Source of the DNA: Amphiscolops sp. MND2022
Lineage: Eukaryota
Direction of reading: 5' to 3'
Assembly (NCBI GenBank): GCA_964187785.1
Contig: OZ076409.1
Span: 62,498,001-62,562,000 of the forward strand
Length of the DNA stretch: 64,000 nucleotides
In this document: positions 46,580-64,000 of the stretch, one piece after another
How the letters are laid out: each line of letters starts with the position of its first letter
Position numbering within the stretch: the first letter of the stretch is position 1
Made by a program: the position numbers and the translations under genes
Notes under the pieces: model-generated
Told to the model about the DNA's origin: nothing
The model's database searches: none
The model's input: only the letters and a program-made list of their open reading frames with translations

Positions 46580-47394
46580 TTATTTTCCGCCCATATTTCA
46601 TATGGGAAAGGAAAATATTTAAATCAAACGGGTTTTTTTTTACAAAATTTGCCAAGAAATATTGTTTACGTAATATGAAGAAGTACATTCACAGAATTCA
46701 ACTGACATCAATTTAGTTCCATGCGATATGTATTTGTAAAGATTTTTGGACTTTTTTGGGAATGACGGAAATGACCCCATAATGACCCAAAAATGACCCC
46801 GAAAATGACAAAAATTCAAAACTTTCCCAATTTTCACCGTTTTCGTGCATTTTTTGCCATTTTTTCGATAAACATCGTCGATTAGAATGTTGAAAACGTT
46901 CAACAAGGCACGAATTCGTTGTCCAATAGTATTCTGAAGAGATACATGCGGTTTTTTAAAAGAAAAATTACCAAAAAAATGACAAAAATTCCAAATTTTT
47001 TTACTTTTAACGTTTTAATGCAATTTTTGTCATTTTTTCGATAAACGTCGTGGATTAGAATGTTGAAAACGTTCAACAAGGCACGAATTCGTTGTCCAAT
47101 AGTATTCTTCAAGGAGATAAATGCGTTTTTTCAAAAAAATTACCCCAAAAATGATTTAAAAAATTCCAAAATTTTTCGATTTTTAACGTTTTTATGCAAT
47201 TTTTGTCAAATTTTCGATAGACTTCGTGGATTAGAATGTTGAAAACGCTCAACGTGACAAGAATGGCAGGAATTCGTTGTCCAGTATGCTTTTCCGAAGA
47301 GATAATGGCTGTTTTCTAAATGAAAAATATATCAAATTCAAACCGAAAATGACAAAAAACACAAAATTTTCCAAATTTCAAAGTTTTTATGCAA
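46580..47394 (+). mobile_element. HINE family 2 copy, truncated by the Gypsy insertion
   Basis: Starts TTATTTTCCGCCCATATTTCATATGGGAAAGGAAAAT (rc of 24550-24593); tandem units stop abruptly at TTTTATGCAA|TGTAGC. Confidence 0.8.
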
Positions 47395-48129
47395 TGTAGC
47401 GATTACCTATCGAGTGCACGATTTCGAAAATTTCGATGAAAATTTCGTTCAAGGGACTATATCTCCTCTACTAAAGAGTCATATTCCGCTAGACGGCAGC
47501 GTGTCTTTATTCAAGTACCTGCCCACAGAATTGAAGAGAATTTGAGCAGAAGACTCGAGAGAGACCCCAACCGAACAAGAAGATTGCAGAAAAATACGGC
47601 CACTGTCAAAAAAAAGACTCAAATTTCTGCCAAAACGGACTGAACTTTGTTCTAACCAGTGCTTTCTTCAGCGAAGTGTTACAAGACGCTGTGATTACCA
47701 AAAATGAGTCAATTAGCTTGACCAAGCATCCGTGCTTGTGTCCCCGGCTAATTGCTGCCTCAAAAGTGCTAATTATGTAGTAATTTTCGTATTTTCTTGC
47801 TGTGACAGCTCGTGAGCTACTCTTTTCGATCTCCTGTGTAACTTCGAAGAAACTTGATTTTTCCTTTCCACCACTTGCATTTTTTAAAGGCTGTCTAAGT
47901 GTTGGTTTCGAAGAAAAAGCGTAATGCGCACTACTGATAGCAATTACAGACTGGATCAGGCCGGCGAGCACTTCACAAGAAGCGGAATCCTCCTCTGACG
48001 GGACAGTTTTTACCCGAAAGAGGCAAAATGAGCTCATGGTCATGGGCGCCTGTCCCGGGCAAATACCCATATCATGTGTTCCTCTAACTCTTATGGTTAC
48101 GGCGACAATGGTGAGAGCTTGTCGTTACA
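47395..48129 (+). repeat. 5' LTR of the Gypsy element (3' boundary 48129, possibly 48140)
   Basis: Starts TGTAGCGA at the break in the host HINE and ends TCGTTACA (7/8 terminal inverted repeat), followed by the PBS. The 3' LTR is not visible for confirmation. Confidence 0.7.
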
Positions 48130-48145
48130 TAGAGACATCATTTTT

Positions 48146-48163
48146 TGGCGACCACAGAGGGAT
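48146..48163 (+). promoter_or_regulatory. Primer-binding site, probably tRNA-Arg type
   Basis: TGGCGACCACAGAGGGAT: TGG start (complement of CCA); resembles the complement of tRNA-Arg(TCG) 3' ends (tRNA identity from recall). Confidence 0.7.
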
Positions 48164-50521
48164 CGCTTCGAAGTGCTTCCCTTAATGGTTTTAAAATAGC
48201 CGACCCTCTGGTGATTGACGCCAAGTACGACCCGACTCTGATGGAAAGAAGAGAGAAGCAGAGTTTTTCCATATTTTTACCCTGTGTGTGTTATTGAAGA
48301 CTTCAACCCCGGTGGATAAAGGTAAATCTTGTAAAAAAGCGTTGTATGTTGTGATTTTCATGCTTTTTTAGTAGTTGACAGGTAACGATCGAAATAGCCT
48401 ACCCTCTTAACGGGTCACTCATAAAATTGGTCTAGCAAGCCGCTGGGAGGCTGCTAGAAGTGTTAACAGGTGTTTTCTAGCCTTTTTCAGCTTTTTATGA
48501 CCAATGAAGTGAGTGTTGAGAAGAGGATGATCCTTGCTCAGAGGAATCTTACAATCTGCCGAAACGAGTTATACGACTCACCGATCCCATTTCCCGTACA
48601 GGCAACCTAGAGAAATGAAATTTGGTGGAGACGTACTACAAATGCTGACGTGTCTAATGGTGCAACCTGTTTGTCTCTGGCTGTTCTGGGTGATGAGCAA
48701 AAAGAACGAGAAGACACGACTCGTCAGTCCGGGTTGTATGATATTTTTGAGTCAGGTTAAAAAAATTTTTTGAGTCGCTCAAAATTTTGTGTACGACCAT
48801 TTGCCAATGTTTTTACGAGCCTTCTGCAACTAAGTGTGTGCTTTTGCACCTATTTTGTGCGAAAAAAGTGCGTTTTTTCATGTATTTTCGACGAAAAGTG
48901 CCAAATTTGGCCATTTTGAGGCGAAACACCTACATGAGCGCGAGCGCTCTTGGTGCTAGCCACGCACCTGCAGAAATTAAATAAAAGTAGCTCAGGACTC
49001 TAACGAGTTCGCAAAAAACGCGACGAAGTACTCAAAGTTGCCCGAGAAGGCACTTAGTATAAGTTTTGTGAGGAAAAAACCCCGTTTTTGAAAAACTGAA
49101 CATTTTAGCACTTTGAACTTGTGGGGGAATTTGTATGGAAGCTTTTAAACACCCCCGTATGGTTGCAATTAGGTTGGGGTACACCTGCCGGTACCCAACA
49201 ATACCCATTTTGGTAATTATAACCACTACTTCTTAAAAAAAGTTACGAGAACTGTGATTTTGAAGTTTTTCTATAGTACTCTTAAAAGAAACCCAACTTG
49301 ACTATTGACGAACACTTTTACGCTTAGAACAGCCCCAGGGCTATTGTTTTTAGTTTATTCGGTAAATTTAACGATCTACAGTAAAGACCGCATCCCAAAA
49401 TTCCTTTTCAGTGCTGAGAAAAGTAGAAAAATGCACTGAAAAACCTCCATTTTTCTAAAATCCGGACTGTCTCTGAGCTAAGGTCGGGTCATTGATTCTT
49501 GGACCTTAGCCAAAAGGTGGTTGCACTTTCATAACCACCACTAAAAATAACGCTAGTGCCGAAAATTTGGTGGACGTAACTTTCACCAAAATCGAGAAAA
49601 GTTCTCTAACATTTCAACTTCAGAGGACTGTAAAACTGCCGAAATAATCTAAAACTGAAGGACTGTCGGTGCCTTGTGTTTAACGGGCACACCTAATCGA
49701 GGGTTTACCCTAGTGCTACGAGTAGTGGGGCAACACGTAGATCCCATTTTTTCAGCCCTACCACTTTTTGAGGTGACCCTCTTAGCCAATTTGTGAAAAA
49801 AGTAGTCCAAAATTGTTTTTCTTTATGAGTGTTGTCCAAGTAAGGTCGAAACCTCAAATAAGCGTCCGCGCTTTCTTTTGATGGTTTCACCGGCATTGTA
49901 CACACTCATCGGCTGTAACCACAAAGTTTCGTATCAATCCAACCGGTACTTGATGAGAAAATAAAAAAAAAAACGTACCACTCAAAAAGTTGGGCATAGA
50001 GGGTAATTTTTCAAATTTTTCCTGAGTGATCCGAGTACCTTAATTGAAAAACGAGGTTGAATTGCAGTTCATTTCTATCATTTGTACCAGATATTACGTT
50101 GTTTTGCAAATTTTGAGCCCGCTAGCTTTTTTCAATGGAGAATAATCTTGAAGTAAGCATGAAAATTGATGTATCTTGATGACTAAGGGTACCGAACGTC
50201 CGGATCAGCCTGAATCTTGAAATAAAAACCTTAGCTTAGATTTAATTTTGCTATCGTGTAGTACACCTACCACAAGGTTAGGTGGCCAATTTTCAAGTGT
50301 TTCCGACGATTAGACGTTGCGTTCGAGGCATCTGAGTCATTTATAAAGAAATATAAAAAACTCAAAAATTGTCTAAAAACCCAATTGTTTGCGAATAAGC
50401 TATTCCGTAAGCCCCAAACGCACGGTTTCCGGCCCCACACCACGGTATCAACGCGCTGTGTAAGTTTCACGCCGGTACGACCCCTAGATCGATTTTTGAC
50501 TTTTTCGAGACGTGCGAAGTC

Positions 50522-53500
50522 ATGAAGCCCAACAGTTTGCGTAACCTTTGGATTTCTATAACGAGAACATTAAGCCGCACGAACACCCAGCGACGCTCTA
50601 ATCATTCAAAAGGGGGGAGGAAGGACACCTCGCGATGCACTGAAGCATCAAAGACACCAGACCCAACGGGGTGCGAGACAAATCTCAGTGCGATATCAGA
50701 CCTGACCTCAGACCCCAGGGAGGAAGATTGGCCAACTGATGACAGTTTCGTTATGGAACCCGATTTTTCAGACCCTATGTCAGACGACGCATCGGAGAAG
50801 TATCAGGCCAAGCCAATCGCCAGGACTACCGATGATATCGGAGGTTCAGCCGACGAAACAGGAAGTCAGGCGCACACGTCCAAATGGTTACAAGAACTCA
50901 CTAAAGTAGCCGTCACACCTTTTGGTACTGACGAAGCAGGAACATGGCCCAATTCCAACAGGACAAACGCTGAAGAAGAAGCTGAAATGAGTTGCTTGAA
51001 TGCCACTGGACAACTCAAAGCTCCCAGCATGGCCAGCGAGAGCACTGCAAACACGGCAGAGATATTGCAACAAATGTCTTATGTCGGGGGTATGAATTAT
51101 GCCAGGGCACGTCTTCAAGAAGCTACGGCCCCCCGAGCATCTGGGAAGGGTAAGCAAGTACGGCCTCCAGCCTTACTAGCACAGACCGGCACTACGGGAC
51201 CTCATGGCGACTCGCGCTCATCCTCACCTTCATCAAAAGCTGCATCTGCCCGATCCTCAGCATATCGAGCCGTACATGAAGCAGCGAAAGCGCGCAAAGC
51301 TCTGTTAGATGCCCAGATAGGCGTGAAGCAAGCTGCTTCACAACTGTCTGAGCGTAAAGCAAGGTGCGATAGAGAGCATCAGTCAATAATGGAGGAGATA
51401 GAAGCCGTACAAACTGAACTGCGAACATCAACTGAGCGACAAGCGCAAGGACATGAAATTCAGGCAGCCCGAATGGATGCCATGGGTTATCGAATGGCCG
51501 AAATAAAGGACATGGTGACCGAAAGAGAGGTGCGCATGGAAGCTCAACTGCAAGAGGTATGTTCACAGATACAAGCAATGGGCACTATGTTGAAAAATAT
51601 CCAACCTCAACCCGCACCAGTAAGTAACACTATCAAAGAGTTGCTGCAAGACACTGATGTATCACTGCCAAAACCCATGAAAAGCGTCTCCCTCAAGCCA
51701 AAAGAGAGTGTGACGATTTCAACAAACCCATCTGGCTCTAAACAACACTTGGCCAGGTACGCGCCCTTGCCACAAACTCTGGTCTCAAATGGAGAAGCTG
51801 CGTCAACATCGACGAAATTTATCCCATCCGCGGTATCAACAAAAAATGTTCCACCCACGACCAAAACTCACAAGAAAGAACCAACGTGCGAGGTGATAAC
51901 TATCGACACTTCAAGCATGGGTATCAGCGACCTGCGAGAGCCCACACGCACAAACGTGCTAACCGAAGTCACTAGCACCTTCCAAACAGCAAATGCAACT
52001 TTGGGAGAATCAGCAGCAGAATTCCAAACCGCGAACGACGAATTACCCCCGGGCAACCCATGCGCCAGCAGCACTCGACGCCGAGAAGTGACTCTCCCCG
52101 AGAACACCGATGACTCTGTCAACTCAACGCGAGGCAGCAGTATCCCGCCACCAGCCATCAGTGAAGAAGCGCCTATATCACCGGAGCAACTCAGGTTTAC
52201 CGAGGCAATATCCAAAGCCATGTCCAAGGAACTGGCGCCGCTGATTGCTAATCGAGATCAAACTAGGGTGCGCCCTACGATATACAAAGGCACTAAAGAT
52301 GGTTCTGTCGATGGATGGCTCCCAGTGATGAAGCGATTTCTAGAAAGGGTACATGCAAAATCCCCAAAGATCGACAGAGCCTGGGCTATCATCGATCACC
52401 TGGAAGGAGAGGCAAGAAATTATATAATCAACAAATCTGAACCTGAACGTGATGAACCCGACAAGGAATTCTCTCTCTTGGCCAGCAGATTTGGAACCGG
52501 TGGAAATCGCATGCACGTCAGGCAAACCTTCATGTCTCGTGTCCAACAGGAAAAAGAGGATTGGATGCAATTCTTGGACGCATTAGAAGGTCTGCGCACC
52601 CAAGGTTTCCCAGACGAGCCTATCACTACGCGTCGTTATGAAATCCTGCAACGTTTTATAGATGGTATAAATGACCCGACGCTGCGACAAGAGTTGGCCG
52701 TGGTGTACGCTGCAGAGTCATATCTGACCGAGCCACCAACTGTAGAATCCCTAAGGTTCACCACGAGACAATTACAACGGCATCGCCCAAACGCGTCAAA
52801 ACCTTACGACCCAAGGTATGCAATGAGATCGAGGCCTCACCCTTTCGTGCCAGGAAAATTGGTTCATCCAGCACCAGGCCTACCGCAAAACGTACTACCT
52901 CCAAACCAAGGACAACGAGAGGCTAAACCCCAGATGGCTCCACCAGGCCCTGCATCGGTAAAACAGGCTCCTGCACAGCAGCAACCAGCGAGAGTGATTC
53001 CCCAAGGAGCATGCTTCAACTGTGGACTACCAGGTCACTTTGCAAGGGAATGCCCAAGTCGAGACCTAGCAAGGAAACCAGCGGCTCGCGCTGCACCCGA
53101 AGAACGAGTAAACTTATGCGAGAATAATGTGGCCTCTGCATGTTCTGGCCCCGTATTCTGTGTAAATTGTGGCATGACCGAACACTCTGCATCACAGTGC
53201 CAAAATGTTCCAGTACATGAGGATTTGGCCTACAGCCTCTGGGCTGAACAGCCATCTGCTTCTCAAACAATGAGTGACAGCGAAATGGTACTCATGCTTC
53301 GCCCTGCTGAAGCCGCTCACGTGACGACGCCCCTTACCGTCACATGTGGCAAAATCCAAATCCAGACGAACCCGGAGCCAACTACTTTTGATCCCTCGGG
53401 ACGCACTATCATGTCTGTCCGATTACTATTGGCGATTGAGAGAGAAACCCGCCCAGAACTCACCATAGACGCTCTGATAGACGAGATAACCGCAAACAAG

Positions 53501-55024
53501 AATTGCCGACAATTGACCCTGCCCCAACCGGAAGAATGGCAGGTAAAAGGCGTCACTTCGACGTATCATGCCTATTCTCCGATTCCAGTCAAAGTTTGCA
53601 TAGATGGTGTTGACATGCGTTTTGGTGCCACTATCATTACTGACGCGTTTCCTCCTGGAATCTGCTTGGGACCGCAGGAGCTGCGCTGCTATAACATTGA
53701 TGCTCAAGAACCAACTGGTGAAGCGAGAATCGATGAGCTTGCGTCGCTCGTAGTTTCATTCGTGGTTCCCGATGCTGCTCCCGTGCCATTACGTGGTCTG
53801 ATAGACACTGGATCAGGAGTGTCCATCCTCACCTTCTCAGCCTACAACCGAGTCGCCGTGCGCACTGGGACACTCTTACGACCTTATGGTATTGACTTAT
53901 ATGCCGCGAATGGGAAGACGATCAAAACTTTTGGTCTAGCGGAGAAAGTCAAATTCCAATTGGGAGGCTACGATTTGGAAACTAACTTCGTGGTAGTCGA
54001 TGACGCCATGGGAGTGGAAGACTTCCTCCTGGGCAGAAACTTCCTAAGAGCTTATCAAGTCTTGGTGGATTTAACCGCGATGAAGGTCATTGTCCGAGCT
54101 CCGTCTGAACCAGTGTGGTACCATGCCCACACACAAGTAAGTAACGAATCACTCAATTCGTCGGTAGCGATTGCACAGGACGTAGTGTTGCAACCTTTTG
54201 AACGCGCAATACTGCGCGCTAAATTGCTTGTAGACAACTTAGAACCTTTCATGTTTCGGACCGTGCTAATCAATTTTCAAACACCTAACCGAATGTTAAA
54301 AAACGCCATCTTTTTAGAGGACACCGTGGCGACCGTGGGGGAGACTGGCTTCCTTTACGTCAGTTTAGGAAATCTTACCAGCAACGTGCAGCGGATTAAA
54401 AAGGGCACCCTTTTAGGAACCGCGGTACCCGTAACGATGGTTCATAAAGCCATCCCCCAAATTGTCCCCGGACAATCAAGTGAAACTCAGCAGTCAAATG
54501 CAAATTATGTTTGTAAAGTTTACGAACAGATGAACCTTGATTCTTCTTCTGAATATAGTTCTTCATCTGAATTTGAGTTTTTGTCCTCTACCGAACCGTC
54601 AGAACTAGGCTTGTCCGAGCGCGAAGTAAAAAGACGAACCGATCCGGCGTTAATGGCTCCGATACCGGGCCCGGAAGCACAACTCGACGAGGTGCGCGGT
54701 TTGTGGGGATCGACCGCCAGCGACACGCTTAGTAAACTTTTGAACGAATTTGATGATTTGTTTATGAAATTCAAAGCCGACATTGGCAAGTGTAAAATCG
54801 CTAAGCACCCGGTGGAAGTAGAGCCAGGGGCTGTACCCCACCGCGAAGGTGCAAGACGAATGTCGCCTGACAAGGCAGAACGTGCTAACCAAGAAGTTCG
54901 TGACTTGCTAGCTTTGGGAATGATACAACCTTCCTTATCCCCTTGGGCGAGTGGAATTGTTATGGTCAAAAAGAAGAGTGGTGAATTGCGATTCTGTTGT
55001 GATTTTCGGCACTTAATGAAGTGA
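50522..55024 (+). CDS. gag-pol: Gypsy Gag-protease-(dUTPase-like)-RT N-terminus
   Basis: Coiled coil, capsid-like region, zinc knuckles CFNCGLPGHFAREC (53012) and CVNCGMTEHSASQC, protease LIDTGSG (53804) and FLLGRNFL, RT start SPWASGIVMVKKKSGELRFCCDFR; 1-nt frame break at ~55010. Confidence 0.93.
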   Translation: MKPNSLRNLWISITRTLSRTNTQRRSNHSKGGRKDTSRCTEASKTPDPTGCETNLSAISDLTSDPREEDWPTDDSFVMEPDFSDPMSDDASEKYQAKPIARTTDDIGGSADETGSQAHTSKWLQELTKVAVTPFGTDEAGTWPNSNRTNAEEEAEMSCLNATGQLKAPSMASESTANTAEILQQMSYVGGMNYARARLQEATAPRASGKGKQVRPPALLAQTGTTGPHGDSRSSSPSSKAASARSSAYRAVHEAAKARKALLDAQIGVKQAASQLSERKARCDREHQSIMEEIEAVQTELRTSTERQAQGHEIQAARMDAMGYRMAEIKDMVTEREVRMEAQLQEVCSQIQAMGTMLKNIQPQPAPVSNTIKELLQDTDVSLPKPMKSVSLKPKESVTISTNPSGSKQHLARYAPLPQTLVSNGEAASTSTKFIPSAVSTKNVPPTTKTHKKEPTCEVITIDTSSMGISDLREPTRTNVLTEVTSTFQTANATLGESAAEFQTANDELPPGNPCASSTRRREVTLPENTDDSVNSTRGSSIPPPAISEEAPISPEQLRFTEAISKAMSKELAPLIANRDQTRVRPTIYKGTKDGSVDGWLPVMKRFLERVHAKSPKIDRAWAIIDHLEGEARNYIINKSEPERDEPDKEFSLLASRFGTGGNRMHVRQTFMSRVQQEKEDWMQFLDALEGLRTQGFPDEPITTRRYEILQRFIDGINDPTLRQELAVVYAAESYLTEPPTVESLRFTTRQLQRHRPNASKPYDPRYAMRSRPHPFVPGKLVHPAPGLPQNVLPPNQGQREAKPQMAPPGPASVKQAPAQQQPARVIPQGACFNCGLPGHFARECPSRDLARKPAARAAPEERVNLCENNVASACSGPVFCVNCGMTEHSASQCQNVPVHEDLAYSLWAEQPSASQTMSDSEMVLMLRPAEAAHVTTPLTVTCGKIQIQTNPEPTTFDPSGRTIMSVRLLLAIERETRPELTIDALIDEITANKNCRQLTLPQPEEWQVKGVTSTYHAYSPIPVKVCIDGVDMRFGATIITDAFPPGICLGPQELRCYNIDAQEPTGEARIDELASLVVSFVVPDAAPVPLRGLIDTGSGVSILTFSAYNRVAVRTGTLLRPYGIDLYAANGKTIKTFGLAEKVKFQLGGYDLETNFVVVDDAMGVEDFLLGRNFLRAYQVLVDLTAMKVIVRAPSEPVWYHAHTQVSNESLNSSVAIAQDVVLQPFERAILRAKLLVDNLEPFMFRTVLINFQTPNRMLKNAIFLEDTVATVGETGFLYVSLGNLTSNVQRIKKGTLLGTAVPVTMVHKAIPQIVPGQSSETQQSNANYVCKVYEQMNLDSSSEYSSSSEFEFLSSTEPSELGLSEREVKRRTDPALMAPIPGPEAQLDEVRGLWGSTASDTLSKLLNEFDDLFMKFKADIGKCKIAKHPVEVEPGAVPHREGARRMSPDKAERANQEVRDLLALGMIQPSLSPWASGIVMVKKKSGELRFCCDFRHLMK

Positions 55025-58000
55025 CTATCAAAGACGCTTATCCCTTGCCACGCATCGATGAGAGTCTATCCCGATTGGGCAAAGCCAAAATCTATACTAG
55101 TATTGACTTGGCGTGGGCATTCTGGCAAATTCCTGTCCGAAAAGCCGATCGTCAAAAGACTGCCTTCGCTTGTGAACTTGGGTTATTTGAGTGGCGGCGT
55201 ATGCCTTTTGGTATGTGTAACGCATCAGCAACATTTCAACGGGCAATAGCGCGAGCGCTACAAAGAATAGTGAACCGTGAAGGAAGTATGGTTATGGCCT
55301 ATATCGATGACATTGTGATTGCTACCGAGACCATCGAGGATCACATGGATAGACTACGCGAAGTATTCCAATGCCTGCGTGAGGCCGGGTTCAAAATGAG
55401 AGTCTCCAAGTGTGACTTCATGAAATCGGAGATCAAATATTTGGGCCGGGTCGTATCCGCAGAAGGTATCAAGCCAGATCCAAAAGCTGTCACCAAGCTG
55501 AAAGAATGGGATATCCCGCGAACCAAGACTGAATTGCAGAGTTTCTTGGGTTTTGCCAACTACTATCGGGATTTTATCCCGTGGCATGCAAAATTAGTTG
55601 CCCCCTTACACGCGATAACGGGAGGAGCCTCTTCATTTTTATGGGGGGAGGAGCAGCAGCGAGCCTTCAACAGCATCAAAGTGGCACTAATGGAAGCCAC
55701 TGCTCTGGCGCAACCTGACACTGAAGGCGAATTTGTTCTCGACACAGATGCTAGTGGTGTAGCTATATCGGGTATTCTGCACCAATGGCAAGGACCACCT
55801 GAGAGTCGCAAACTGCGACCGATTGTATTCGGAAGCAAAAAATTAACTGCTACGCAAGCAAAGTATGGAGCCCCAAATTTGGAAATGTATGCTGCATACT
55901 ATTTCATCTTGAAAAACCACAGTTATCTCTGTCCACGAAAGTTCATACTGAGGGTAGATAATCAGGCCCTATCCTGGCTAAAAACATATTCGATGGATCA
56001 GGCGATTATCGGTCGATGGATTATGGCTCTTGAAAAATATCACTTCAGTATTGAGCACCGACCCAGAACGCAACATCGAAATGCTGACGGTCTTAGCAAA
56101 CGAACAAATGATTACAAAAAACACGAAAAGCAACTAAAGGGTTTACCCGCAATTGCAGACAAATGGGATTTCCTATCACAGGAGGAATATAACAAACTCC
56201 CGCTAGCCCCATGGTTCGATGTCCACGGACGTGTGATACCAAATCACCCAGAATTGCCTGCACACTTGCAGAGGTTGGGTAGCCAAAGTTCACCCGAGAC
56301 CACAGTTGCCGTTCCCACGCGAAGGAGCGGACGAAGCAAACGAAATGCGACCATACGCGACGAAGCCATGAGAGCGCCCCTACCTACATTGCCAAAACCA
56401 GAATTGACACTGCCTGCCGAACTTTATCCAGAATATCCTGAGGATTGGTTGGAACTGACCGAGGAATATCAACGAGACTATTTACTCCCCACGCATGCTG
56501 CTAACGTACCATCAAGAACCACTTACCCATTGACGGAAAAGCAAGCAACTAGCACTGCACCAGAGCACGTGAAACAAGCCGCGTTCGTGGTAAACAGCAT
56601 ATCAATGGAACTGCATGAACATGCTAACACAGTCCATGGGTTGAAGGATCTACTACTAGCACAAAACCGTGACGTCCATATATTGGCTATCAAGAAATTG
56701 GTAATGCAAGAATCAACAGATAATGACGTCTTTCCGGAGAATGTACGTGCCTTTGCCAAAAACTACCACAAACAGAAGAAGAACCTTCTACTAATAAACA
56801 CCAACGGGATTTTGTGTGTAAAATACTCCAAAAGTCAAAGAGCTTTGCATCAACGCCCCTGCATGATAGTGATGCCACAATTGTATCAGCATGAGATACT
56901 ATTCAAGGCCCATGACGCGATGGGACATCAGGGCATCGCGAAAGTCTTGGCCAGAATTCACGAGCGCCACACTTGGCCAGGCATCCGCCGCACCATTGGA
57001 CAATACGTCAGCCAATGCATCACTTGTCAACAAGTACGCGACAAGCCTGGTGATGTACGCTTTCACTTGAAGAATATCCAAAGCGGTTATTTCAACGAGC
57101 TAGTCCAATATGACCACATGAAGATTTGTCCCTCTGATGATGGTAACACAGGGATATTGGTTATTATCGATCATTTCTCTAAACTCGCAGAAGCTGTGCC
57201 GTGCAACCACGATGAGTATGATGCAGCGACCACTTCAAAGTTGTTGTTGCAGAAGTGGTTTGCCCGCCATGGAACACCGACGAGGATGCAGTCAGACAAT
57301 GCTCCCAATTTCACCGCGGCAGTATCTGCTGAGTTTATGAAAGCAGCCCAAATGACCAAAGTAACCTCAACTGCTGGCCACCCCAGGACTCAAGGGTTGG
57401 TAGAGCGACAAAACCGAACGCTACTCACCCTACTGCGTGTATTCTGCTCTAGACGAATGCGTGACTGGGATCAGTACCTAGATGAAGTTATGGGTGCATA
57501 CAACTCCACACGTCATGCCACTACTGGATTCTCCCCGTATATGCTGACCAGAGGCATGGAAAAAGCTATACCCCTGACTTTCTTGTATCCAGAATTTGCA
57601 ACTCAGTCATTCGAATCATACGAAGCCTATGTGGAACATGTGCTGGCTCGACAACAAGAGATTCATGACTTAGTCCGTCGCAACACGCATCAAGCCCAGC
57701 AACGACAAAAATTGAAGTACGACAGAGCAATTCGTGCTAAAGCCTACGAAGTGGGCGAACCTGTTTGGGTATTCTGCCGATACATTCCTCAAAAGGGATC
57801 TCCTAAATTGATGAGAGCGTGGCGTGGTCCTCACAAGGTAGCACGAGTGCTACAAGAGGGACGTGTCTACATACTTGACACTGGTCAGAAAGTGCATTTC
57901 GAACGATTGAAACCGCATCATGGTGGTCCAACAGAATGGGCAGCTGTTCCTGCGCATAACGGCGAGGTTGCTATCATCATGGACCCTGATCCAGAACAAT

Positions 58001-58770
58001 CCCATGAGGAGGTGAGAGACGATGCTTCGCAACCTTCTTACCGTGCAGAGGAACCAATTTCAGAAGCCAGTAATGCCTCTTTGCCTTCTCGACAAAGACA
58101 TTGGATGGACACACGGTTACGCACACACATGCGCGCAGGTGGCAGCCGCCTACACTATCAACAATTTGGCTACTCTTCGACTGAGTCTGACGATGAACCT
58201 TCTGATGTACTCCTATCGAGTGTTCAGGCCAGTCCTGATGAAAGTGTTATCTTGTCATCACATGTAGATGAACCTGCGCCTACTCCCGAAATGCCAATAT
58301 CACCACTACCTGCTATGGAGGCTCTGTTCTCAGAGAATGAAGCAGTACCCGACGCATTGGACATCACCCCGGATCCTACTATCCACGTACCCACCAAAAG
58401 TGCCGCCACCTCTTTGACCGGTACATCCGCCCCATTATTGACAAATCCATCTCTTACGGATATGTTGAGTAACTTTCCCATTTGGCCCCTAATCGATGAC
58501 AATGTTCTCAACCCAACCCTAGACGACAACGGTGCTGAAATACCAACAACCAATAACGAAAAGGGATCGATCCCCCTGCGACAGTTCCCACCAACAACAA
58601 TGCAGCTACTACCACGAAACTCTCCAATGCTCCTAGAGGGCGTGGACCCCGGGGACGTCCGCCAGGCAGAGCGAGGCCGCGAGCCTCGCTGCCACGTGGT
58701 CACCAACGGAGAGGTGCTATTAGAGGCGCTCGCAAAAGAGGCCGTCCCAGAGGTAGACCTCCTCGTATAA
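55021..58770 (+). CDS. pol: Gypsy Pol: RT, RNase H, integrase
   Basis: DAYPLPRID, MPFGMCNA, YIDD (55300), LDTDAS, VDNQAL, H-x4-H...CITC zinc finger, QYD/SDN/VER catalytic DDE, WRGPHKV (GPY/F). Confidence 0.95.
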   Translation: MTIKDAYPLPRIDESLSRLGKAKIYTSIDLAWAFWQIPVRKADRQKTAFACELGLFEWRRMPFGMCNASATFQRAIARALQRIVNREGSMVMAYIDDIVIATETIEDHMDRLREVFQCLREAGFKMRVSKCDFMKSEIKYLGRVVSAEGIKPDPKAVTKLKEWDIPRTKTELQSFLGFANYYRDFIPWHAKLVAPLHAITGGASSFLWGEEQQRAFNSIKVALMEATALAQPDTEGEFVLDTDASGVAISGILHQWQGPPESRKLRPIVFGSKKLTATQAKYGAPNLEMYAAYYFILKNHSYLCPRKFILRVDNQALSWLKTYSMDQAIIGRWIMALEKYHFSIEHRPRTQHRNADGLSKRTNDYKKHEKQLKGLPAIADKWDFLSQEEYNKLPLAPWFDVHGRVIPNHPELPAHLQRLGSQSSPETTVAVPTRRSGRSKRNATIRDEAMRAPLPTLPKPELTLPAELYPEYPEDWLELTEEYQRDYLLPTHAANVPSRTTYPLTEKQATSTAPEHVKQAAFVVNSISMELHEHANTVHGLKDLLLAQNRDVHILAIKKLVMQESTDNDVFPENVRAFAKNYHKQKKNLLLINTNGILCVKYSKSQRALHQRPCMIVMPQLYQHEILFKAHDAMGHQGIAKVLARIHERHTWPGIRRTIGQYVSQCITCQQVRDKPGDVRFHLKNIQSGYFNELVQYDHMKICPSDDGNTGILVIIDHFSKLAEAVPCNHDEYDAATTSKLLLQKWFARHGTPTRMQSDNAPNFTAAVSAEFMKAAQMTKVTSTAGHPRTQGLVERQNRTLLTLLRVFCSRRMRDWDQYLDEVMGAYNSTRHATTGFSPYMLTRGMEKAIPLTFLYPEFATQSFESYEAYVEHVLARQQEIHDLVRRNTHQAQQRQKLKYDRAIRAKAYEVGEPVWVFCRYIPQKGSPKLMRAWRGPHKVARVLQEGRVYILDTGQKVHFERLKPHHGGPTEWAAVPAHNGEVAIIMDPDPEQSHEEVRDDASQPSYRAEEPISEASNASLPSRQRHWMDTRLRTHMRAGGSRLHYQQFGYSSTESDDEPSDVLLSSVQASPDESVILSSHVDEPAPTPEMPISPLPAMEALFSENEAVPDALDITPDPTIHVPTKSAATSLTGTSAPLLTNPSLTDMLSNFPIWPLIDDNVLNPTLDDNGAEIPTTNNEKGSIPLRQFPPTTMQLLPRNSPMLLEGVDPGDVRQAERGREPRCHVVTNGEVLLEALAKEAVPEVDLLV

Positions 58771-60287
58771 CGCACGCCAGACCTAACACTCCTACCCGTG
58801 TTCGTAGCACTCCATCTATGGACACTGACTCTTCTGCCCCTAGCGCGGCGGTTACCTCAGACCAAGCAGCACCGCCAGAATCAACCAACGCCCGTTATGG
58901 ACTGCGACACAATCGTATTCCCAGATATCGTTGCGGAACATGTGGCCTACGAGACTGCGAATGTAACTACATGGTCCACGCGGGCTTCCCAATCAAACCC
59001 CAGGGAGTCCTGCTAGCACGTGAACAGGAAAAATCGCTTCCAAGCGGAACGGTTGACCGTTTGGTTATTCGGGCCGAGAAGACTTATACTGGGCTACAAC
59101 GCAGCGACACTCCATATCCCGTGGACTATATCCTATCCAAAATGAAAGATTCTACGATAGCAAAGGCCCCGTGCCCAAGGTTCAAGGAGTGGACCTATGA
59201 TCTTGTTGGTTTGGAGTTCACCTTACCCATCACTGTTCCCCCTTTGCCTACAAATATTGCCTTTGGTCCTTTCAACTACGAGCGAGAGCCTATCCAAATG
59301 ATACGCTGTATTCCTGCTGACCTCTTGTATGACAAATACAACGTCACCGCAAAACCAGGAGACGTTTATCAGCCTACAAGCAACTGGTGGCTACTAGTTA
59401 CGGCCAAACAAACATCCGACCTGGTTCATCCCACTAACTTGAACACCTGTCTGGAGAGTTTGCGGACGATGGCCTCTCCTGATAGAATCACTTGTTTCCA
59501 CACCATAGACCTATATCGTGGTAAAATTAAGTTTGAATGGTGGCTGGAACTTATTATAGCGGTCTTATCGAATTTTTCACGAATCAGATTCCTGGACGAA
59601 TGGACACACTCATTTCCTAGTCCTGTATCGCTCCAATCGGCCCTGCACGCACTGGATACATGGTCCAGGGCTAATATTGATAATCAATCATTGCCGCGAT
59701 CTGTGTGGCAAGACTTGGGCGCAATCAAAGGCCTCCTCCCGAATACATGTAACGATGCTCTCTCCAAAGACCCCGGACGAGAGTTAGTGTACCATGGAGC
59801 CGTGAGACCTCAATTGGTTGACTATGTGCAGTATGCCAATACGGACTTCCTGCAGACTCCCCATCACATTGTTTTATGTTGTCCCGCAAATCTGGAAACT
59901 AGTTCTGCCGCTCTTCGTTACGTCATTCGTGAGCATGGTGCAGATGCAATCTTTCAACTTCGACCGGAGGTTGGCAATATTGTAACGCTACCCACAACTT
60001 TGATAGACGGCCATCCTCAGACTATCCACCTTTTAATCACACGAGCTACACCTCGCTGCCCTATGCTCGCTGATATTCTCTTTGGATGTCTTGATCATTT
60101 GAAAACGTTACTCGAGCGCTTGGAGGCGATAGAAGTACACTTTGCCATCATTGATCCTGAGCGCCCAATACGTAATCTTTTCGATTTTTATACCTGTTTG
60201 ATGGACGTATTCGCCGATACCCCCCTGACCGTCGTTCTTCACGATCGCGTTTACGTATCTATTGCAAGCGTCACTAGCTTTCCGTAA
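58557..60287 (+). CDS. Probable Pol C-terminal extension (-1 frame): AT-hooks, Cys cluster and two degenerate TARG1/Poa1p-like macro domains
   Basis: The frame of track ORF 58818-60287 is open from 58557 and reads ...PRGRPPGR...RKRGRPRGRPPR...CGTCGLRDCEC...IRCIPADL...WLLVTAKQ...CLESLR...; HHIVLCCPANL...VGNIVTL...IHLLITR...CLDHLK...LMDVF. Confidence 0.75.
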   Translation, partial: RKGIDPPATVPTNNNAATTTKLSNAPRGRGPRGRPPGRARPRASLPRGHQRRGAIRGARKRGRPRGRPPRITHARPNTPTRVRSTPSMDTDSSAPSAAVTSDQAAPPESTNARYGLRHNRIPRYRCGTCGLRDCECNYMVHAGFPIKPQGVLLAREQEKSLPSGTVDRLVIRAEKTYTGLQRSDTPYPVDYILSKMKDSTIAKAPCPRFKEWTYDLVGLEFTLPITVPPLPTNIAFGPFNYEREPIQMIRCIPADLLYDKYNVTAKPGDVYQPTSNWWLLVTAKQTSDLVHPTNLNTCLESLRTMASPDRITCFHTIDLYRGKIKFEWWLELIIAVLSNFSRIRFLDEWTHSFPSPVSLQSALHALDTWSRANIDNQSLPRSVWQDLGAIKGLLPNTCNDALSKDPGRELVYHGAVRPQLVDYVQYANTDFLQTPHHIVLCCPANLETSSAALRYVIREHGADAIFQLRPEVGNIVTLPTTLIDGHPQTIHLLITRATPRCPMLADILFGCLDHLKTLLERLEAIEVHFAIIDPERPIRNLFDFYTCLMDVFADTPLTVVLHDRVYVSIASVTSFP

Positions 60288-60510
60288 AGCTTTTGTTTTT
60301 CCGCCTTTTTTTTGTTTTTGTTTTTTATCCGCTCGATTAAGTTTAGTGAGTCGACACGGAGTTTATGTGAAACTGTTACGTTACCTTTTTCTTTAATGTT
60401 AGTGTGTGACATTATATTACTTTCCCTGATATTACCCTTAAAATGACCTATGGTGTTGCCCAACTATCAAGTGTGCTACAATCGACCTGCACTCTTTCAG
60501 AATTGTCGTC

Positions 60511-63500
60511 ATGAACCAAGATAACGATAGAAGCAACAACGTCCCGCCAAGGTCTACAGATAACTCTCCTGCCTTGGGGCAACGCGTCTATGACACTGCG
60601 CGTGTCCAACGCACCCCACAAATTGCCTTTATTCGAGACAGACTCGACCAAGGTCTGTCGCCAGCTACAGTTGCCGGGGTAGCGGCAATCATTGCCCAGA
60701 TGGAGTCACAATTGCAAGCCCCAATGCTGACGATATCAATTACTTCAGGGTTTCCTGGGTTCCAACGATCCATGACATACCAAGATGGAGTGTGGCACGG
60801 CCATGATCTCACGCATCACTTCACGGATGATCGTGCGGCGATCTCATACAGTCCTGCGAATGGCGGAGTCCATCAGACTAGACCTCTACAGATCCCTTCT
60901 TGCCCGCCTCCACCTCCACCGCCACCTCCTGCATCAACATCACAAGCAGTAGTGCGTGCGCGCACTCCTGCTCCTACAGTGCCTCACTTGCCCAATCAAT
61001 CTATGGCAGAGCAAGCAGTCATCTCAGCACTGCAAGCAGTGGCTGCCAACCCCAATTACGATGATTTCATGCGATCCATGGAGCAGTGTTGGCCAGAACT
61101 ACGTCGAATTGCTCTGCCCACTGTCACTATTCGCAACGACAATGTGACTTCAACTGAAACACGTCAAGGTGTCATCACTATTCCCCACATCAATCCTCAG
61201 TCTGAACAGCCAGGACACTCTCGCACCGTGACTGTAGAGCGCAGTCGTTCGCCTTCCCGCTCTTCTCAAAAGGGAGGAGGAGAGAGCCGCCCTGCCTCAA
61301 GAAAACGCAACGACCCTTCTCCAACAAAAAAGACTCAACAACCACTGACTGCCCGTGACAGTCCCTCGAGCAAGCCACCACCCGACAAAAAGATCTCCAA
61401 CGAGAAGGCCACAACCTCCAAAGCGCCAGACCAAACAAAATCAAAAGTGTCGGAAGCATGCGTGCTTCCCTCACCCCAATCACAACCGGACGTAACAGGC
61501 GAACAACAAGGACTGCCGCAACCACCATCCACGCAGTCTACAACACGCGAGTCGCTGGCTCAACGAGCGACTCCTAAGCCTTCCACATCAAGACAGCCAC
61601 AAACGGAGCAAACTGTGGGTTATCAAGGCACCCCTGAATCTCAGCGAACTGTCAAGGACATAATGGGTGATTACCCAGGGTTGAAGGTAACCAACAGTGG
61701 TCCAACTGGAACCCCACTCCGCAAACAGGCGATTCAACACCCAACTAAGAGGACCTTTACGAAACAGCCGACGTACCTGAGTCCAATGCAAAACACAAAG
61801 GGCACACTGGTCACCAAGGATTCCCGACGTATCTGGGAATCGGCAGTTATAGTATCGCCCGAATGGCTATTTGAGAAGAACATGTGTCCTCCGAATGACG
61901 AAGAGCATGCGAAATTGAAGAAGGCGAATGTACCTGTATTCATGAATCGTCCAATCCGCCCCGACCACACCCCTACCAATGAGCCGCCATGGCTAGGGAA
62001 GGCAATGAACATGCTGCCAAACGTGGAAGAGAATTACTTGGACGCCCTCAACATTGACCTTCGTGGGCAATTCGCTGATCGATATTTCCTCAACGCTGGA
62101 GAGACCTTCGAGATCAACCCACGGTACGCCCGTGACCTCGAAGCCCAGCTACCAATGCCAAAAGAAAGGTTGCAGCGTGCGCGCTTCGCCTTACTTATAG
62201 ACTCAACATTCCTCAAGAATGTCCCCATTGACAATGTGCTGTCAGACGTGATGGTTTTTACTCTACCGCTGTCACGTATTCCCGAGATGGCCGAAGTGTT
62301 GGTCACCATGTTTGACCCTGAGATGACAGGGACCTTCAAAGAGCCACCCCCACGCAGAGTGATCATCAGCAACGTTTTCGATCACATGGCCTGTGAAGGA
62401 CTAATGGCCCAGATCGCAAACGTTGAAATTATAAATCCAAGTCCAGCACAGCGAACAACAGTACGCAATGCAGCATTGAACATGGCCCGAGCCATGGAAA
62501 AAGCCCAAAACATCTTAAAGGATAAACTCAAGGTGCCAGCCCTGTTCGTGACACCCCCAGGTTTCTGCCAATGGCCTCCCGCCTTGCAGAGATTTATCTA
62601 CATGGTAACAGAAGTTTGCAAGTGTAGAGAAATAGACTTTGCGATCTGCGCGCCCAATATGCGGATCGGCTCCAACGACTTTCGTCCCTCCTGGCTTTCC
62701 TACATGGGGTATATTGCCTCAGTGTCTAAAGTGCTACAGTCAGTGGAAAAGACAGGGAACGCGCAGCTGACAATCGACGATGCCATCTACTTTGATCACG
62801 GCACTCGTATGGGCTTGTTAGTATTTAACAACGACGGAGAAAGGCGAGTCCCAGAGCCCAGTACGGCTGAATGCGAGGCAATCCGCCTGAATAACTGGAT
62901 AGAGCGCGCGCGCTCCTCCGGTGGAAAGACTTGTATCAAAACTGATCTTGCAGAAGTCACTGCCATAATGAGCAAAGTCCCCAGCGACCGAGAAGTAGAA
63001 CGAGCCATCCCGCGAGTTCAATTTGCCAAGGACCTCACAATCGATCAATTATCAGTGGGAATGAAGTACATTGCTGCAAAACTGACGAGCGAAACTCAGG
63101 CTGAAATCCAAGCCTTCAGCAGCACCTACGACGCCTGGTACCAGCGGCTACAAACTACCACCGTAGCAGACATTGCAAAAGAGCTTGGGATGTCAACCGA
63201 CCAGTTTGCCATCTGTTTGGGATTGGGTTGGAGTCCCGATGTTATTCGAGTTGAGTTCGATTTAGACGAGAACTGGTTGATCGAAATCAGCAAGATCATC
63301 GGTACCATGCAAGTAAACGAACTCTTTGCACTGATGCTCACTTTCGGGCAGAAACGCTTCGTAGCTGGGCCAATGATGATATTGACCGACCTAGTTACCG
63401 AGTGTAATCTGGAATGGTTATTTTCATATTTGGTGATTGCACGAGGGAATATCTCAGGCCTCACCGCCTTAGCCAAGCTGTTACAACGAAAAGACGCTCA

Positions 63501-64000
63501 GGATTATCCCGCTCACCTGGAGCGCATGACAACTTCATTATATCACTGGATATATTGCAGTCTGGTCTTTGCCTCGGGACTTTTCGTGGGGGTGGATAAG
63601 CACCAACCATTATATGACGGACGTCAGCTAGTGACCGAGGTAGCCGGATTTTTGACACCTAACCAGCTGGCAGATTTCACTTTGGCTGAAGTCGAAGATC
63701 TCGTACCGGTGTTAGCACCCGTGCTAACTCCGATATTTGGCCCAACCGGGATACTTCGCTATCCCACCAAGCCTCTGCGACTGGCCTCGGAGACACTAAC
63801 AGTATCCATCCTGACTTATCTGAAGAACGTGAAACCGCACAACTATCAACAGATGCTTGAACGTGGGCTGTTTCTGCTAGTACCCCGCATGTATACCACC
63901 ATAAAGAATGAGACGCAGCAAGACGAAAACCTGGCCGGTATTCTCAAAGCCCGAACAAAGAAGGCGTGCCCTTTACCTCGCGAATACGGCCCGGTGAATT
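60511..64000 (+). CDS. Additional Gypsy ORF of >=1163 aa, open to the window end: Pro/Ser-rich N-half, SGNH-like fold, HTH-like motif
   Basis: Manual translation from ATG 60511 (MNQDNDRSNNVPPR...) shows no stop through 64000; absent from the track because it has no stop. Preceded by acceptor-like CACTCTTTCAG (60490-60500). Confidence 0.9.
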   Translation, partial: MNQDNDRSNNVPPRSTDNSPALGQRVYDTARVQRTPQIAFIRDRLDQGLSPATVAGVAAIIAQMESQLQAPMLTISITSGFPGFQRSMTYQDGVWHGHDLTHHFTDDRAAISYSPANGGVHQTRPLQIPSCPPPPPPPPPASTSQAVVRARTPAPTVPHLPNQSMAEQAVISALQAVAANPNYDDFMRSMEQCWPELRRIALPTVTIRNDNVTSTETRQGVITIPHINPQSEQPGHSRTVTVERSRSPSRSSQKGGGESRPASRKRNDPSPTKKTQQPLTARDSPSSKPPPDKKISNEKATTSKAPDQTKSKVSEACVLPSPQSQPDVTGEQQGLPQPPSTQSTTRESLAQRATPKPSTSRQPQTEQTVGYQGTPESQRTVKDIMGDYPGLKVTNSGPTGTPLRKQAIQHPTKRTFTKQPTYLSPMQNTKGTLVTKDSRRIWESAVIVSPEWLFEKNMCPPNDEEHAKLKKANVPVFMNRPIRPDHTPTNEPPWLGKAMNMLPNVEENYLDALNIDLRGQFADRYFLNAGETFEINPRYARDLEAQLPMPKERLQRARFALLIDSTFLKNVPIDNVLSDVMVFTLPLSRIPEMAEVLVTMFDPEMTGTFKEPPPRRVIISNVFDHMACEGLMAQIANVEIINPSPAQRTTVRNAALNMARAMEKAQNILKDKLKVPALFVTPPGFCQWPPALQRFIYMVTEVCKCREIDFAICAPNMRIGSNDFRPSWLSYMGYIASVSKVLQSVEKTGNAQLTIDDAIYFDHGTRMGLLVFNNDGERRVPEPSTAECEAIRLNNWIERARSSGGKTCIKTDLAEVTAIMSKVPSDREVERAIPRVQFAKDLTIDQLSVGMKYIAAKLTSETQAEIQAFSSTYDAWYQRLQTTTVADIAKELGMSTDQFAICLGLGWSPDVIRVEFDLDENWLIEISKIIGTMQVNELFALMLTFGQKRFVAGPMMILTDLVTECNLEWLFSYLVIARGNISGLTALAKLLQRKDAQDYPAHLERMTTSLYHWIYCSLVFASGLFVGVDKHQPLYDGRQLVTEVAGFLTPNQLADFTLAEVEDLVPVLAPVLTPIFGPTGILRYPTKPLRLASETLTVSILTYLKNVKPHNYQQMLERGLFLLVPRMYTTIKNETQQDENLAGILKARTKKACPLPREYGPVN

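What the first reader, a model, noticed from the sequence alone, without database searches (positions are those of the whole stretch)
60490..64000. Hidden >1160-aa non-env accessory ORF in the env position: SGNH-like fold, HTH-like motif and splice acceptor
Seen: stop-free frame from 60511 to the window end, absent from the ORF track, with no signal peptide. After a Pro/Ser/Thr-rich half, 62185-62740 follows SGNH block order: FALLIDS (GDS-like), VMVFTLPLSRI, RRVIISNVFD (GxND-like), ALFVTPPG, CKCREIDF, NDFRPSW (DxxH-like, His lost). TTVADIAKELGMSTDQFA (63157-63210) looks like a helix-turn-helix. Acceptor CTCTTTCAG lies 10 nt before the ATG, and donor-like AG|GTAAAT (~48320) and AG|GTAACG (~48381) lie in the leader, as for spliced env mRNAs. 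Known: SGNH domains occur in some LINE ORF1 proteins and bind lipids. Inference: an uncharacterised accessory protein for membrane interaction, transmission or regulation.
Basis: partly seen in the sequence, partly recalled or inferred. Interest (0 to 1): 0.8.

Follow-up and report, generated by a model that had tools for sequence, protein, structure and literature searches.

The report
Disarmed esterase in retrotransposon accessory protein
A large, abundant family of jumping genes carries, where retroviruses keep their envelope gene, a strongly conserved extra gene whose protein is predicted to fold like a fat-splitting enzyme but has likely lost its cutting site, so it likely binds the element's RNA or DNA instead.

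Summary
Confirmed. The ORF is real and is the second and last gene (env position) of a 19.2-kb Ty3/Gypsy LTR retrotransposon: 1,330 aa here, 1,455 aa or more in 20 sister copies. Its folded parts have dN/dS 0.043-0.055, like capsid and integrase. A second family (28% identity) has the same layout. A confident model (pLDDT 82) matches SGNH hydrolases (top 50 structural hits, best Z 11.7). The block I Ser is kept, but the oxyanion Gly and Asn are replaced and the catalytic His is a conserved Arg (27 of 35), so it is likely a pseudo-esterase. It has no signal peptide or clear membrane anchor, so it is not an Env. The helix-turn-helix is inconclusive and splicing is untested (no RNA run listed). 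Best guess for function: an intracellular, probably nuclear, nucleic-acid-binding scaffold (0.45); lipid binding is the main rival (0.25). SGNH genes in this position are known from rotifer Vesta elements, but with intact catalytic residues. The scan found this dead-esterase reading before on other DNA of this genome (e1-9076048, e1-9389583). Also seen: 3-bp target duplications (19 of 19 resolved pairs) and a tRNA-Arg primer site 16 nt from the LTR.

The parts
47392..47394 (+). 3-bp target-site duplication (CAA), repeated after the 3' LTR
   Evidence: 3 bp in 19 of 19 resolved LTR pairs of two families, 2 further pairs not resolved
47395..48129 (+). 5' LTR, 735 bp, TGTA...TACA; the 3' LTR lies beyond the window (L011:5890-6624)
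   Evidence: (99.86% identity over 736 bp)
48146..48163 (+). Primer-binding site complementary to the 3' 18 nt of host tRNA-Arg(TCG), 16 nt after the LTR end
   Evidence: same 16-nt offset in 4 of 4 family-2 elements
48320..48388 (+). Two donor-like AG|GTAA sites (48322, 48382); use not shown
   Evidence: present in 9 of 10 sister pieces printed (one row mis-anchored); 7 AG|GTRA in 16.6 kb; not found near the leader start of family 2
50522..55024 (+). gag-protease part of gag-pol (CCHC knuckles, aspartic protease); frame ends early in this copy
55201..58770 (+). pol part: RT C-terminal half, RNase H, integrase
   Evidence: best PDB match Ty3 Gag-Pol, E 2.6e-64
58818..60287 (+). C-terminal extension of Pol, separated by a frame break in this copy; 39-42% identical to family 2; fold not determined
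   Evidence: (one frame with integrase in 10 of 10 sister 3' pieces)
60492..60500 (+). Acceptor-like CTCTTTCAG, 10 nt before the ORF2 ATG; use not shown
   Evidence: kept in 20 of 21 copies; pyrimidine-rich AG sites also in the family-2 spacer
60511..64000 (+). ORF2, the accessory gene in the env position (runs to window-equivalent 64503; 1,330 aa here, 1,455 aa in most sisters)
60610..60855 (+). Small conserved N-terminal domain of ORF2 (aa 34-115), no family match
   Evidence: 35-39% identity to family 2; dN/dS 0.047 for aa 1-130
60898..61830 (+). Pro/Ser/Thr/Gln-rich, probably disordered linker with a basic RKR cluster (61300-61308), NLS-like
62176..62760 (+). SGNH-fold domain, likely non-catalytic: Ser565 kept (62203), block II Gly to Leu587, block III Asn to Phe623, block V His to Arg725 (62683)
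   Evidence: fold; conservation; canonical blocks. Block mapping is from motif order and model secondary structure
63157..63210 (+). HTH-like helical motif; inconclusive
   Evidence: HTH_AraC E 0.082, TetR_N E 0.21, below cut-off, only on a 90-aa excerpt; hydrophobic pattern conserved
62761..64000 (+). Large conserved, probably helical C-terminal region of ORF2; no known family or fold found
   Evidence: low-confidence model; dN/dS 0.055

Best explanation
ORF2 is a strongly conserved accessory gene in the env position of a Ty3/Gypsy retrotransposon clade; its protein is predicted to hold an SGNH fold that likely lacks esterase activity, is likely made from a spliced RNA, and likely works inside the cell, probably in the nucleus, as a nucleic-acid-binding scaffold that helps the element express or protect its own RNA or DNA. 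Shown: position, copy conservation, purifying selection, substitutions at the catalytic positions. Predicted: the fold. Inferred: loss of catalysis, splicing, nuclear location, ligand and role.
For: Position between gag-pol and the 3' LTR in both families. dN/dS 0.043-0.055 in folded parts, against 0.058 for CA/NC and 0.043 for integrase in the same 10 elements. Model pLDDT 82; all 50 VIA rows SGNH-like, best Z 11.7, rmsd 3.6, 172 aligned; Foldseek prob 1.0 to GDSL lipases. His position is Arg in 27 of 35 homologous fragments and in all 5 divergent long proteins aligned; block II Leu 29 of 33; block III Asn position is Leu/Phe/Ile/Met against canonical GDSLS / ISGDTS / ELGGND / D-x-IHPN (PMC10792757). 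No signal peptide or clear TM segment. One basic cluster in the linker in family 1, family 2, P0162 and P0003. Weak HTH hits. Precedent: the Oskar OSK domain is an SGNH fold without catalytic residues that binds RNA (PMC5785220).
Against: No binding, location or expression data. HTH scores are below cut-off and vanish on the full protein and on 4 homologous fragments. The basic cluster is short, could be chance, and is absent from the linker of P0168, P0093 and P0129. OSK ranks only 44th (Z 8.7), below active esterases. The only retroelement SGNH studied biochemically bound phospholipids and not oligo(A) RNA (PMC3905857 abstract). Ser565 is kept (22 of 28) with conserved Asp624-His625 (34 of 36, 33 of 36), which could serve an altered active site. 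Family 2 lacks matching leader donors.
Confidence: 0.45

Rival explanations
1. ORF2 is a non-catalytic lipid- or membrane-binding adaptor: the dead SGNH pocket with its Arg binds anionic phospholipids and anchors the element's particles or RNP to membranes.
For: [quoted passage not shown] An Arg in the pocket suits a phosphate. The env position is where membrane functions usually sit. SGNH fold.
Against: No TM segment, signal peptide or coiled-coil evidence; the long disordered linker with a basic cluster and HTH-like helices look more like a regulator. No profile similarity to LINE or Gypsy intact esterases of the same genome (hhalign prob 0.2, reversed control 0.15).
Confidence: 0.25
2. ORF2 is still an enzyme with a rearranged active site (Ser565 with Asp624/His625, or a Ser-Arg pair) that deacylates or acylates a host or element target.
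For: Asp564-Ser565, Asn621, Asp624 and His625 are among the most conserved residues, and Ser565 is invariant in 5 divergent long proteins.
Against: His625 is Asp in P0168. The canonical base, acid and both oxyanion residues are replaced.
Confidence: 0.12
3. ORF2 replaces Env and mediates cell-to-cell transmission of the element.
For: Env position and env-like splice layout. In 9 of 21 copies an upstream in-frame ATG adds a 38-aa hydrophobic leader.
Against: No signal peptide from the conserved ATG. The upstream leader is closed or out of frame in 12 of 21 copies and has no counterpart in family 2. No fusion-protein match. Cys count is not conserved (18 against 7-9).
Confidence: 0.08
4. ORF2 is captured cargo or a separate element without a role in this retrotransposon.
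For: No known family; it diverges faster than gag-pol between families (28% against 43-70%).
Against: Inside the LTRs, same place in two families, dN/dS about 0.05.
Confidence: 0.03

Closest known systems
GDSL/SGNH ORF3 of bdelloid rotifer Vesta LTR retrotransposons (PMC5408684; parts 1-2 of 5 of the text and passages read)
   Same: SGNH domain in a separate ORF after pol, in place of env, with no TM domain; such ORF3s are typically expressed from spliced RNA.
   Different: Vesta ORFs keep the invariant catalytic residues, are low-copy and showed no significant departure from neutrality within the genome. Here the catalytic residues are replaced, the domain sits in a 1,455-aa multidomain protein, and purifying selection is strong. 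The paper also notes dead GDSL derivatives in Athena-L (Penelope-like, not LTR).
SGNH esterase of non-LTR ORF1p, ZfL2-1 (PMC3905857; abstract and outline read)
   Same: Retroelement-encoded SGNH fold.
   Different: Active enzyme in the ORF1 position with a coiled coil; binds lipids, not oligo(A). No profile similarity to the intact retroelement esterases of this genome.
Oskar OSK domain (PDB 5A4A; PMC5785220 and PMC10792757, passages read)
   Same: SGNH fold without a catalytic triad, in a protein with other modules; RNA binding is the precedent for the best explanation.
   Different: Host gene of insects; OSK has Asp at the Ser position, whereas ORF2 keeps Ser. Rank 44 of 50, Z 8.7, 8% identity: an analogue, with no evidence of common descent.
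Giant Gypsy elements Burro and Ogre (PMC6431247, passages read)
   Same: Large Gypsy-type elements with long polyproteins and extra ORFs.
   Different: Their listed extra domains (BIR, MATH, BCL-2, env-like, dUTPase) were not found here; no SGNH ORF is mentioned for them in the passages read.

Membership tests
Ty3/Gypsy LTR retrotransposon (Metaviridae type) | Two LTRs with TG...CA ends, a PBS and a PPT | tested here: met
   purine-rich GGGGAG just before the 3' LTR
Ty3/Gypsy LTR retrotransposon (Metaviridae type) | Domain order gag-PR-RT-RH-IN | tested here: met
   (Ty3 best match)
Ty3/Gypsy LTR retrotransposon (Metaviridae type) | Short fixed TSD (3-6 bp for LTR elements per PMC10045372; 4 bp typical of Drosophila Gypsy per PMC3276498) | tested here: met
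   3 bp in 19 of 19 resolved pairs; the low end of the range
Ty3/Gypsy LTR retrotransposon (Metaviridae type) | Placement in a named clade by RT phylogeny | not tested
   no named reference set of clades was obtained from the tools
SGNH/GDSL hydrolase superfamily | alpha/beta/alpha SGNH fold with blocks I, II, III, V in order | tested here: met
   (predicted model)
SGNH/GDSL hydrolase superfamily | Block I nucleophile Ser | tested here: met
   Asp564 26 of 27, Ser565 22 of 28
SGNH/GDSL hydrolase superfamily | Block II Gly and block III Asn (oxyanion hole) | tested here: not met
   Leu 29 of 33 at the Gly position (Gly kept in P0168); Leu/Phe/Ile at the Asn position; mapping by motif order and model
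SGNH/GDSL hydrolase superfamily | Block V Asp-x-x-His | tested here: not met
   Arg 27 of 35, His 2 of 35; the Asp position is variable
SGNH/GDSL hydrolase superfamily | Sequence-profile match (Pfam PF13472 or similar) | tested here: not met
   (0 of 48 members)
SGNH/GDSL hydrolase superfamily | Hydrolase activity | not testable with these tools
   needs an assay
Env / fusion glycoprotein | Signal peptide, C-terminal TM anchor, homology to a viral fusion protein | tested here: not met
   (N-terminal KD at most -0.07 in 5 full ORFs; internal maxima 1.7-2.1 lie in the globular region)
Env / fusion glycoprotein | Expression from a spliced subgenomic RNA | tested here: inconclusive
   motifs present; no RNA data obtained
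Helix-turn-helix DNA-binding domain | Profile or fold match to an HTH family | tested here: inconclusive
   (E 0.06-0.2, below cut-off); no confident model of this part
Oskar OSK-like domain | Dead SGNH fold with RNA binding and closer likeness to OSK than to other SGNH proteins | tested here: inconclusive
   dead fold shared, but rank 44 of 50; RNA binding not testable here

The most novel reading that the evidence does not exclude
A retrotransposon clade has independently turned a captured SGNH esterase into an RNA-binding module like the Oskar OSK domain, built into a large disordered scaffold that assembles or shields the element's RNA (granule targeting or anti-silencing) and is as essential as capsid: a non-env third function that defines a clade also marked by 3-bp target duplications and a displaced tRNA-Arg primer site.
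Probability: 0.2. Interest if true: 0.8.

Novelty: new variant of a known kind. Interest (0 to 1): 0.52.

Why it matters
What the non-env extra ORFs of LTR retrotransposons do is an open question. In rotifers they looked nearly neutral, and an enzymatic role was only proposed. Here such an ORF is under the same constraint as capsid and integrase in a high-copy young family, is kept across lineages at about 28% identity, and has likely lost catalysis. That argues that a binding function of the SGNH fold, not hydrolysis, is what these elements select for. The domain boundaries and a confident model make lipid binding against nucleic-acid binding directly testable on the isolated domain.

Tried and rejected
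Pfam and NCBIfam on ORF2: no family. PDB sequence and profile searches: none. ESM Atlas for the SGNH part and for the C-terminal 580 aa: no usable hit. The named-homologue database could not be queried, so no host names are attached; ten homologues looked up are unnamed ENA records. Single-sequence fold of aa 471-1163: pLDDT 38.7, and its fold search was meaningless; the C-terminal region therefore has no fold assignment. hhalign against intact SGNH domains of the same genome: not significant, so no donor was identified. RNA runs: none was listed, which is no evidence on expression or splicing. P0145 and P0065 had no close match in this genome at E 1e-60 and 1e-150: not found with these queries, probably from other hosts. 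The Pol extension resembles a macrodomain by eye (recalled), but Pfam and PDB searches gave nothing and it could not be folded. Read-through from pol was rejected as the route to ORF2: there is a stop plus a spacer of about 220-320 nt, and the frame differs among copies. The 3-bp TSD is not outside the known range (PMC10045372 gives 3-6 bp). Literature searches listed no paper on this clade or on a dead SGNH ORF in LTR elements; the library lacks most subscription papers and Repbase, and no supplements were read.
Full report
OBSERVATION. The frame from ATG 60511 is stop-free to the window end. In the adjoining genomic DNA it closes after codon 1,330. All quoted motifs and splice-like sites are at the stated coordinates. 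Pfam, NCBIfam, PDB sequence search and the ESM Atlas give nothing for the ORF.

THE ELEMENT. The ORF lies inside a 19.2-kb LTR retrotransposon. The 5' LTR is 47395-48129 and the 3' LTR is at window-equivalent 65890-66624, 99.86% identical. [quoted passage not shown] This copy is broken: gag-pol is split near 55024-55201 and near 58770-58818, and ORF2 ends 125 codons earlier than in sisters. In 10 sister elements the integrase and the 58818 ORF are in one frame in 10 of 10 3' pieces, and the 5' piece is open throughout in 5 of 10. The intact layout is therefore one gag-pol ORF of about 3,250 aa plus ORF2 in the env position. The primer site at 48146-48163 matches 18 nt of host tRNA-Arg(TCG) and sits 16 nt from the LTR. 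Target duplications are 3 bp in 15 of 15 resolved family-1 pairs and 4 of 4 family-2 pairs; 2 pairs were not resolved. That is the low end of the published 3-6 bp range (PMC10045372, passages).

CONSERVATION. A DNA search scored 40 of 927 candidates, all at 98-100%. A protein search scored 150 of 2,974, all at 97-100% with no stop in the match. Candidates are not copy numbers. Twenty sisters that I picked from that list, favouring long open frames, encode 1,455-1,469 aa from the same ATG. Over these 21 copies dN/dS is 0.063, and shared changes are 277.5 synonymous against 58.5 non-synonymous. That set was chosen on the SGNH part, so I repeated the test on 10 elements, 8 of them chosen by LTR match. 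ORF2 was unbroken in 7 of 10. dN/dS was 0.047 (aa 1-130), 0.113 (linker), 0.043 (aa 441-770), 0.055 (aa 771-1330) and 0.142 (tail), against 0.058 for CA/NC, 0.022 for RT-RH and 0.043 for integrase. A library search found 442 homologous fragments at E<=0.001; ten looked up are unnamed ENA records. One of them led to a second family in this genome (95 matches scored). Four elements picked from it for long frames have the same layout, LTRs of 713-726 bp, the same PBS offset, and an ORF2 of about 1,390-1,415 aa at 27-29% identity in the core and 35-39% in a small N-terminal domain. Two other homologues had no close match here, so the family probably extends to other hosts.

FOLD AND ACTIVE SITE. 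A single-sequence model failed (pLDDT 38.7). With a 48-sequence alignment (47 of the 150 listed hits, chosen for covering the domain), residues 531-800 folded at pLDDT 82, pTM 0.77. Foldseek ranks GDSL/SGNH proteins first (E 4e-4, prob 1.0). All 50 VIA rows are SGNH-like, best Z 11.7, rmsd 3.6, 172 aligned. The viral library agrees. Against the canonical blocks GDSLS / ISGDTS / ELGGND / D-x-IHPN (PMC10792757, passages), ORF2 reads IDSTF / LPLSRI / ISNVFD / NDFRPS. Asp-Ser is kept (26 of 27, 22 of 28). The block II Gly position is Leu (29 of 33). The block III Asn position is hydrophobic. The His position is Arg (27 of 35, His in 2), and the acid position varies. Ser565 and Arg725 are invariant in five divergent long proteins, while His625 is not. 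The mapping rests on motif order and model secondary structure, not on a residue-level superposition. Profile comparison with intact SGNH domains of the same genome was not significant, so the origin of the domain is open.

OTHER PARTS. There is no signal peptide or clear membrane anchor. The Pro/Ser/Thr/Gln-rich linker holds one basic cluster in family 1, family 2, P0162 and P0003, but not in P0168, P0093 or P0129. The HTH-like motif gives only sub-threshold Pfam hits on a 90-aa excerpt. The C-terminal 580 aa are conserved and have no assignment. The acceptor-like site is kept in 20 of 21 copies, and a pyrimidine-rich AG lies in the family-2 spacer, but AG|GTRA donors are missing from the leader in 3 of 4 family-2 elements. 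Splicing is plausible and untested.

MECHANISM. Shown: a captive, strongly selected ORF with substitutions at the catalytic positions. Predicted: the SGNH fold. Inferred: a spliced RNA yields an intracellular pseudo-esterase whose Arg-bearing pocket and helical region bind an anionic partner. I favour nucleic acid, probably in the nucleus (0.45), on the long disordered linker, the basic cluster, the HTH-like helices and the Oskar OSK precedent (PMC5785220, passage). OSK itself is no closer than active esterases (rank 44). Rivals are lipid binding (0.25; the ZfL2-1 esterase binds phospholipids and not oligo(A), PMC3905857 abstract), an altered active enzyme (0.12), an Env substitute (0.08) and inert cargo (0.03).

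COMPARISON AND NOVELTY. SGNH ORFs in the env position are published for rotifer Vesta elements, with intact catalytic residues and near-neutral evolution within the genome (PMC5408684, parts 1-2 of 5 and passages). ORF2 has the SGNH fold and fails the catalytic features, so it is filed as a pseudo-esterase, not as an SGNH hydrolase or an Env. My searches listed no paper on this form; Repbase and most subscription papers are not covered, and no supplements were read. Earlier notes of this scan reached the same dead-esterase reading on other pieces of this genome; I had formed it before reading them. Verdict: a new variant of a known kind, interest 0.52.

Noticed in passing
window 47392-47394 and LTR pairs: Both families make 3-bp target-site duplications (19 of 19 resolved pairs), the rare low end of the LTR range; this may reflect a distinct integrase geometry.
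   Followed up: partly
window 48130-48163; L117, L120, L123, L126: The tRNA-Arg primer site lies 16 nt after the LTR end in both families, longer than the few bases I recall as usual; how the cDNA end is trimmed is unexplained.
   Followed up: partly
window 58818-60287: Pol carries a conserved C-terminal extension of about 490 aa after integrase, with a Cys cluster (CxxC..CxC) and, by eye and from recall, one or two macrodomain-like units; Pfam and PDB searches found nothing.
   Followed up: partly
L149:7344-10000 and L150:1578-5765 (G000 C7 about 61.30 Mb): A different Gypsy family has an intact SGNH esterase directly after integrase, followed by an ORF with a signal-peptide-like start (possibly env-like).
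   Followed up: partly
L151:1833-6001; L153:6145-10000: LINE-like elements with SGNH esterases in ORF1 upstream of an RT-bearing ORF; several families in this genome.
   Followed up: partly
L079 (G000 C4 about 43.727 Mb): An LTR is joined 11 nt after its end directly to the 5' part of ORF2, in a tandem arrangement: a deletion derivative that lacks gag-pol.
   Followed up: no
L048-L054, L057, L059, upstream of the ORF2 ATG: In 9 of 21 copies an upstream in-frame ATG adds a 38-aa hydrophobic leader across the acceptor site; it is not conserved in the other copies or in family 2.
   Followed up: partly
L160 (G000 C9 about 57.54-57.57 Mb): Tandem array of tRNA-Arg(TCG) genes with a period of about 174 bp; most of the listed matches among the 276 lie here. 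It is the primer tRNA of this element.
   Followed up: partly
window 47606-48070 (- strand): A 154-codon antisense ORF lies within the LTR; not tested for selection.
   Followed up: no
window 40838-42433 (- strand): 531-codon open exon with several C2HC/C2H2-like zinc-finger motifs, probably a host transcription-factor gene 5 kb from the insertion.
   Followed up: no
window 46789-47253 and L011:6625-6722: The element inserted into a 173-bp tandem repeat array that continues after the 3' LTR.
   Followed up: yes
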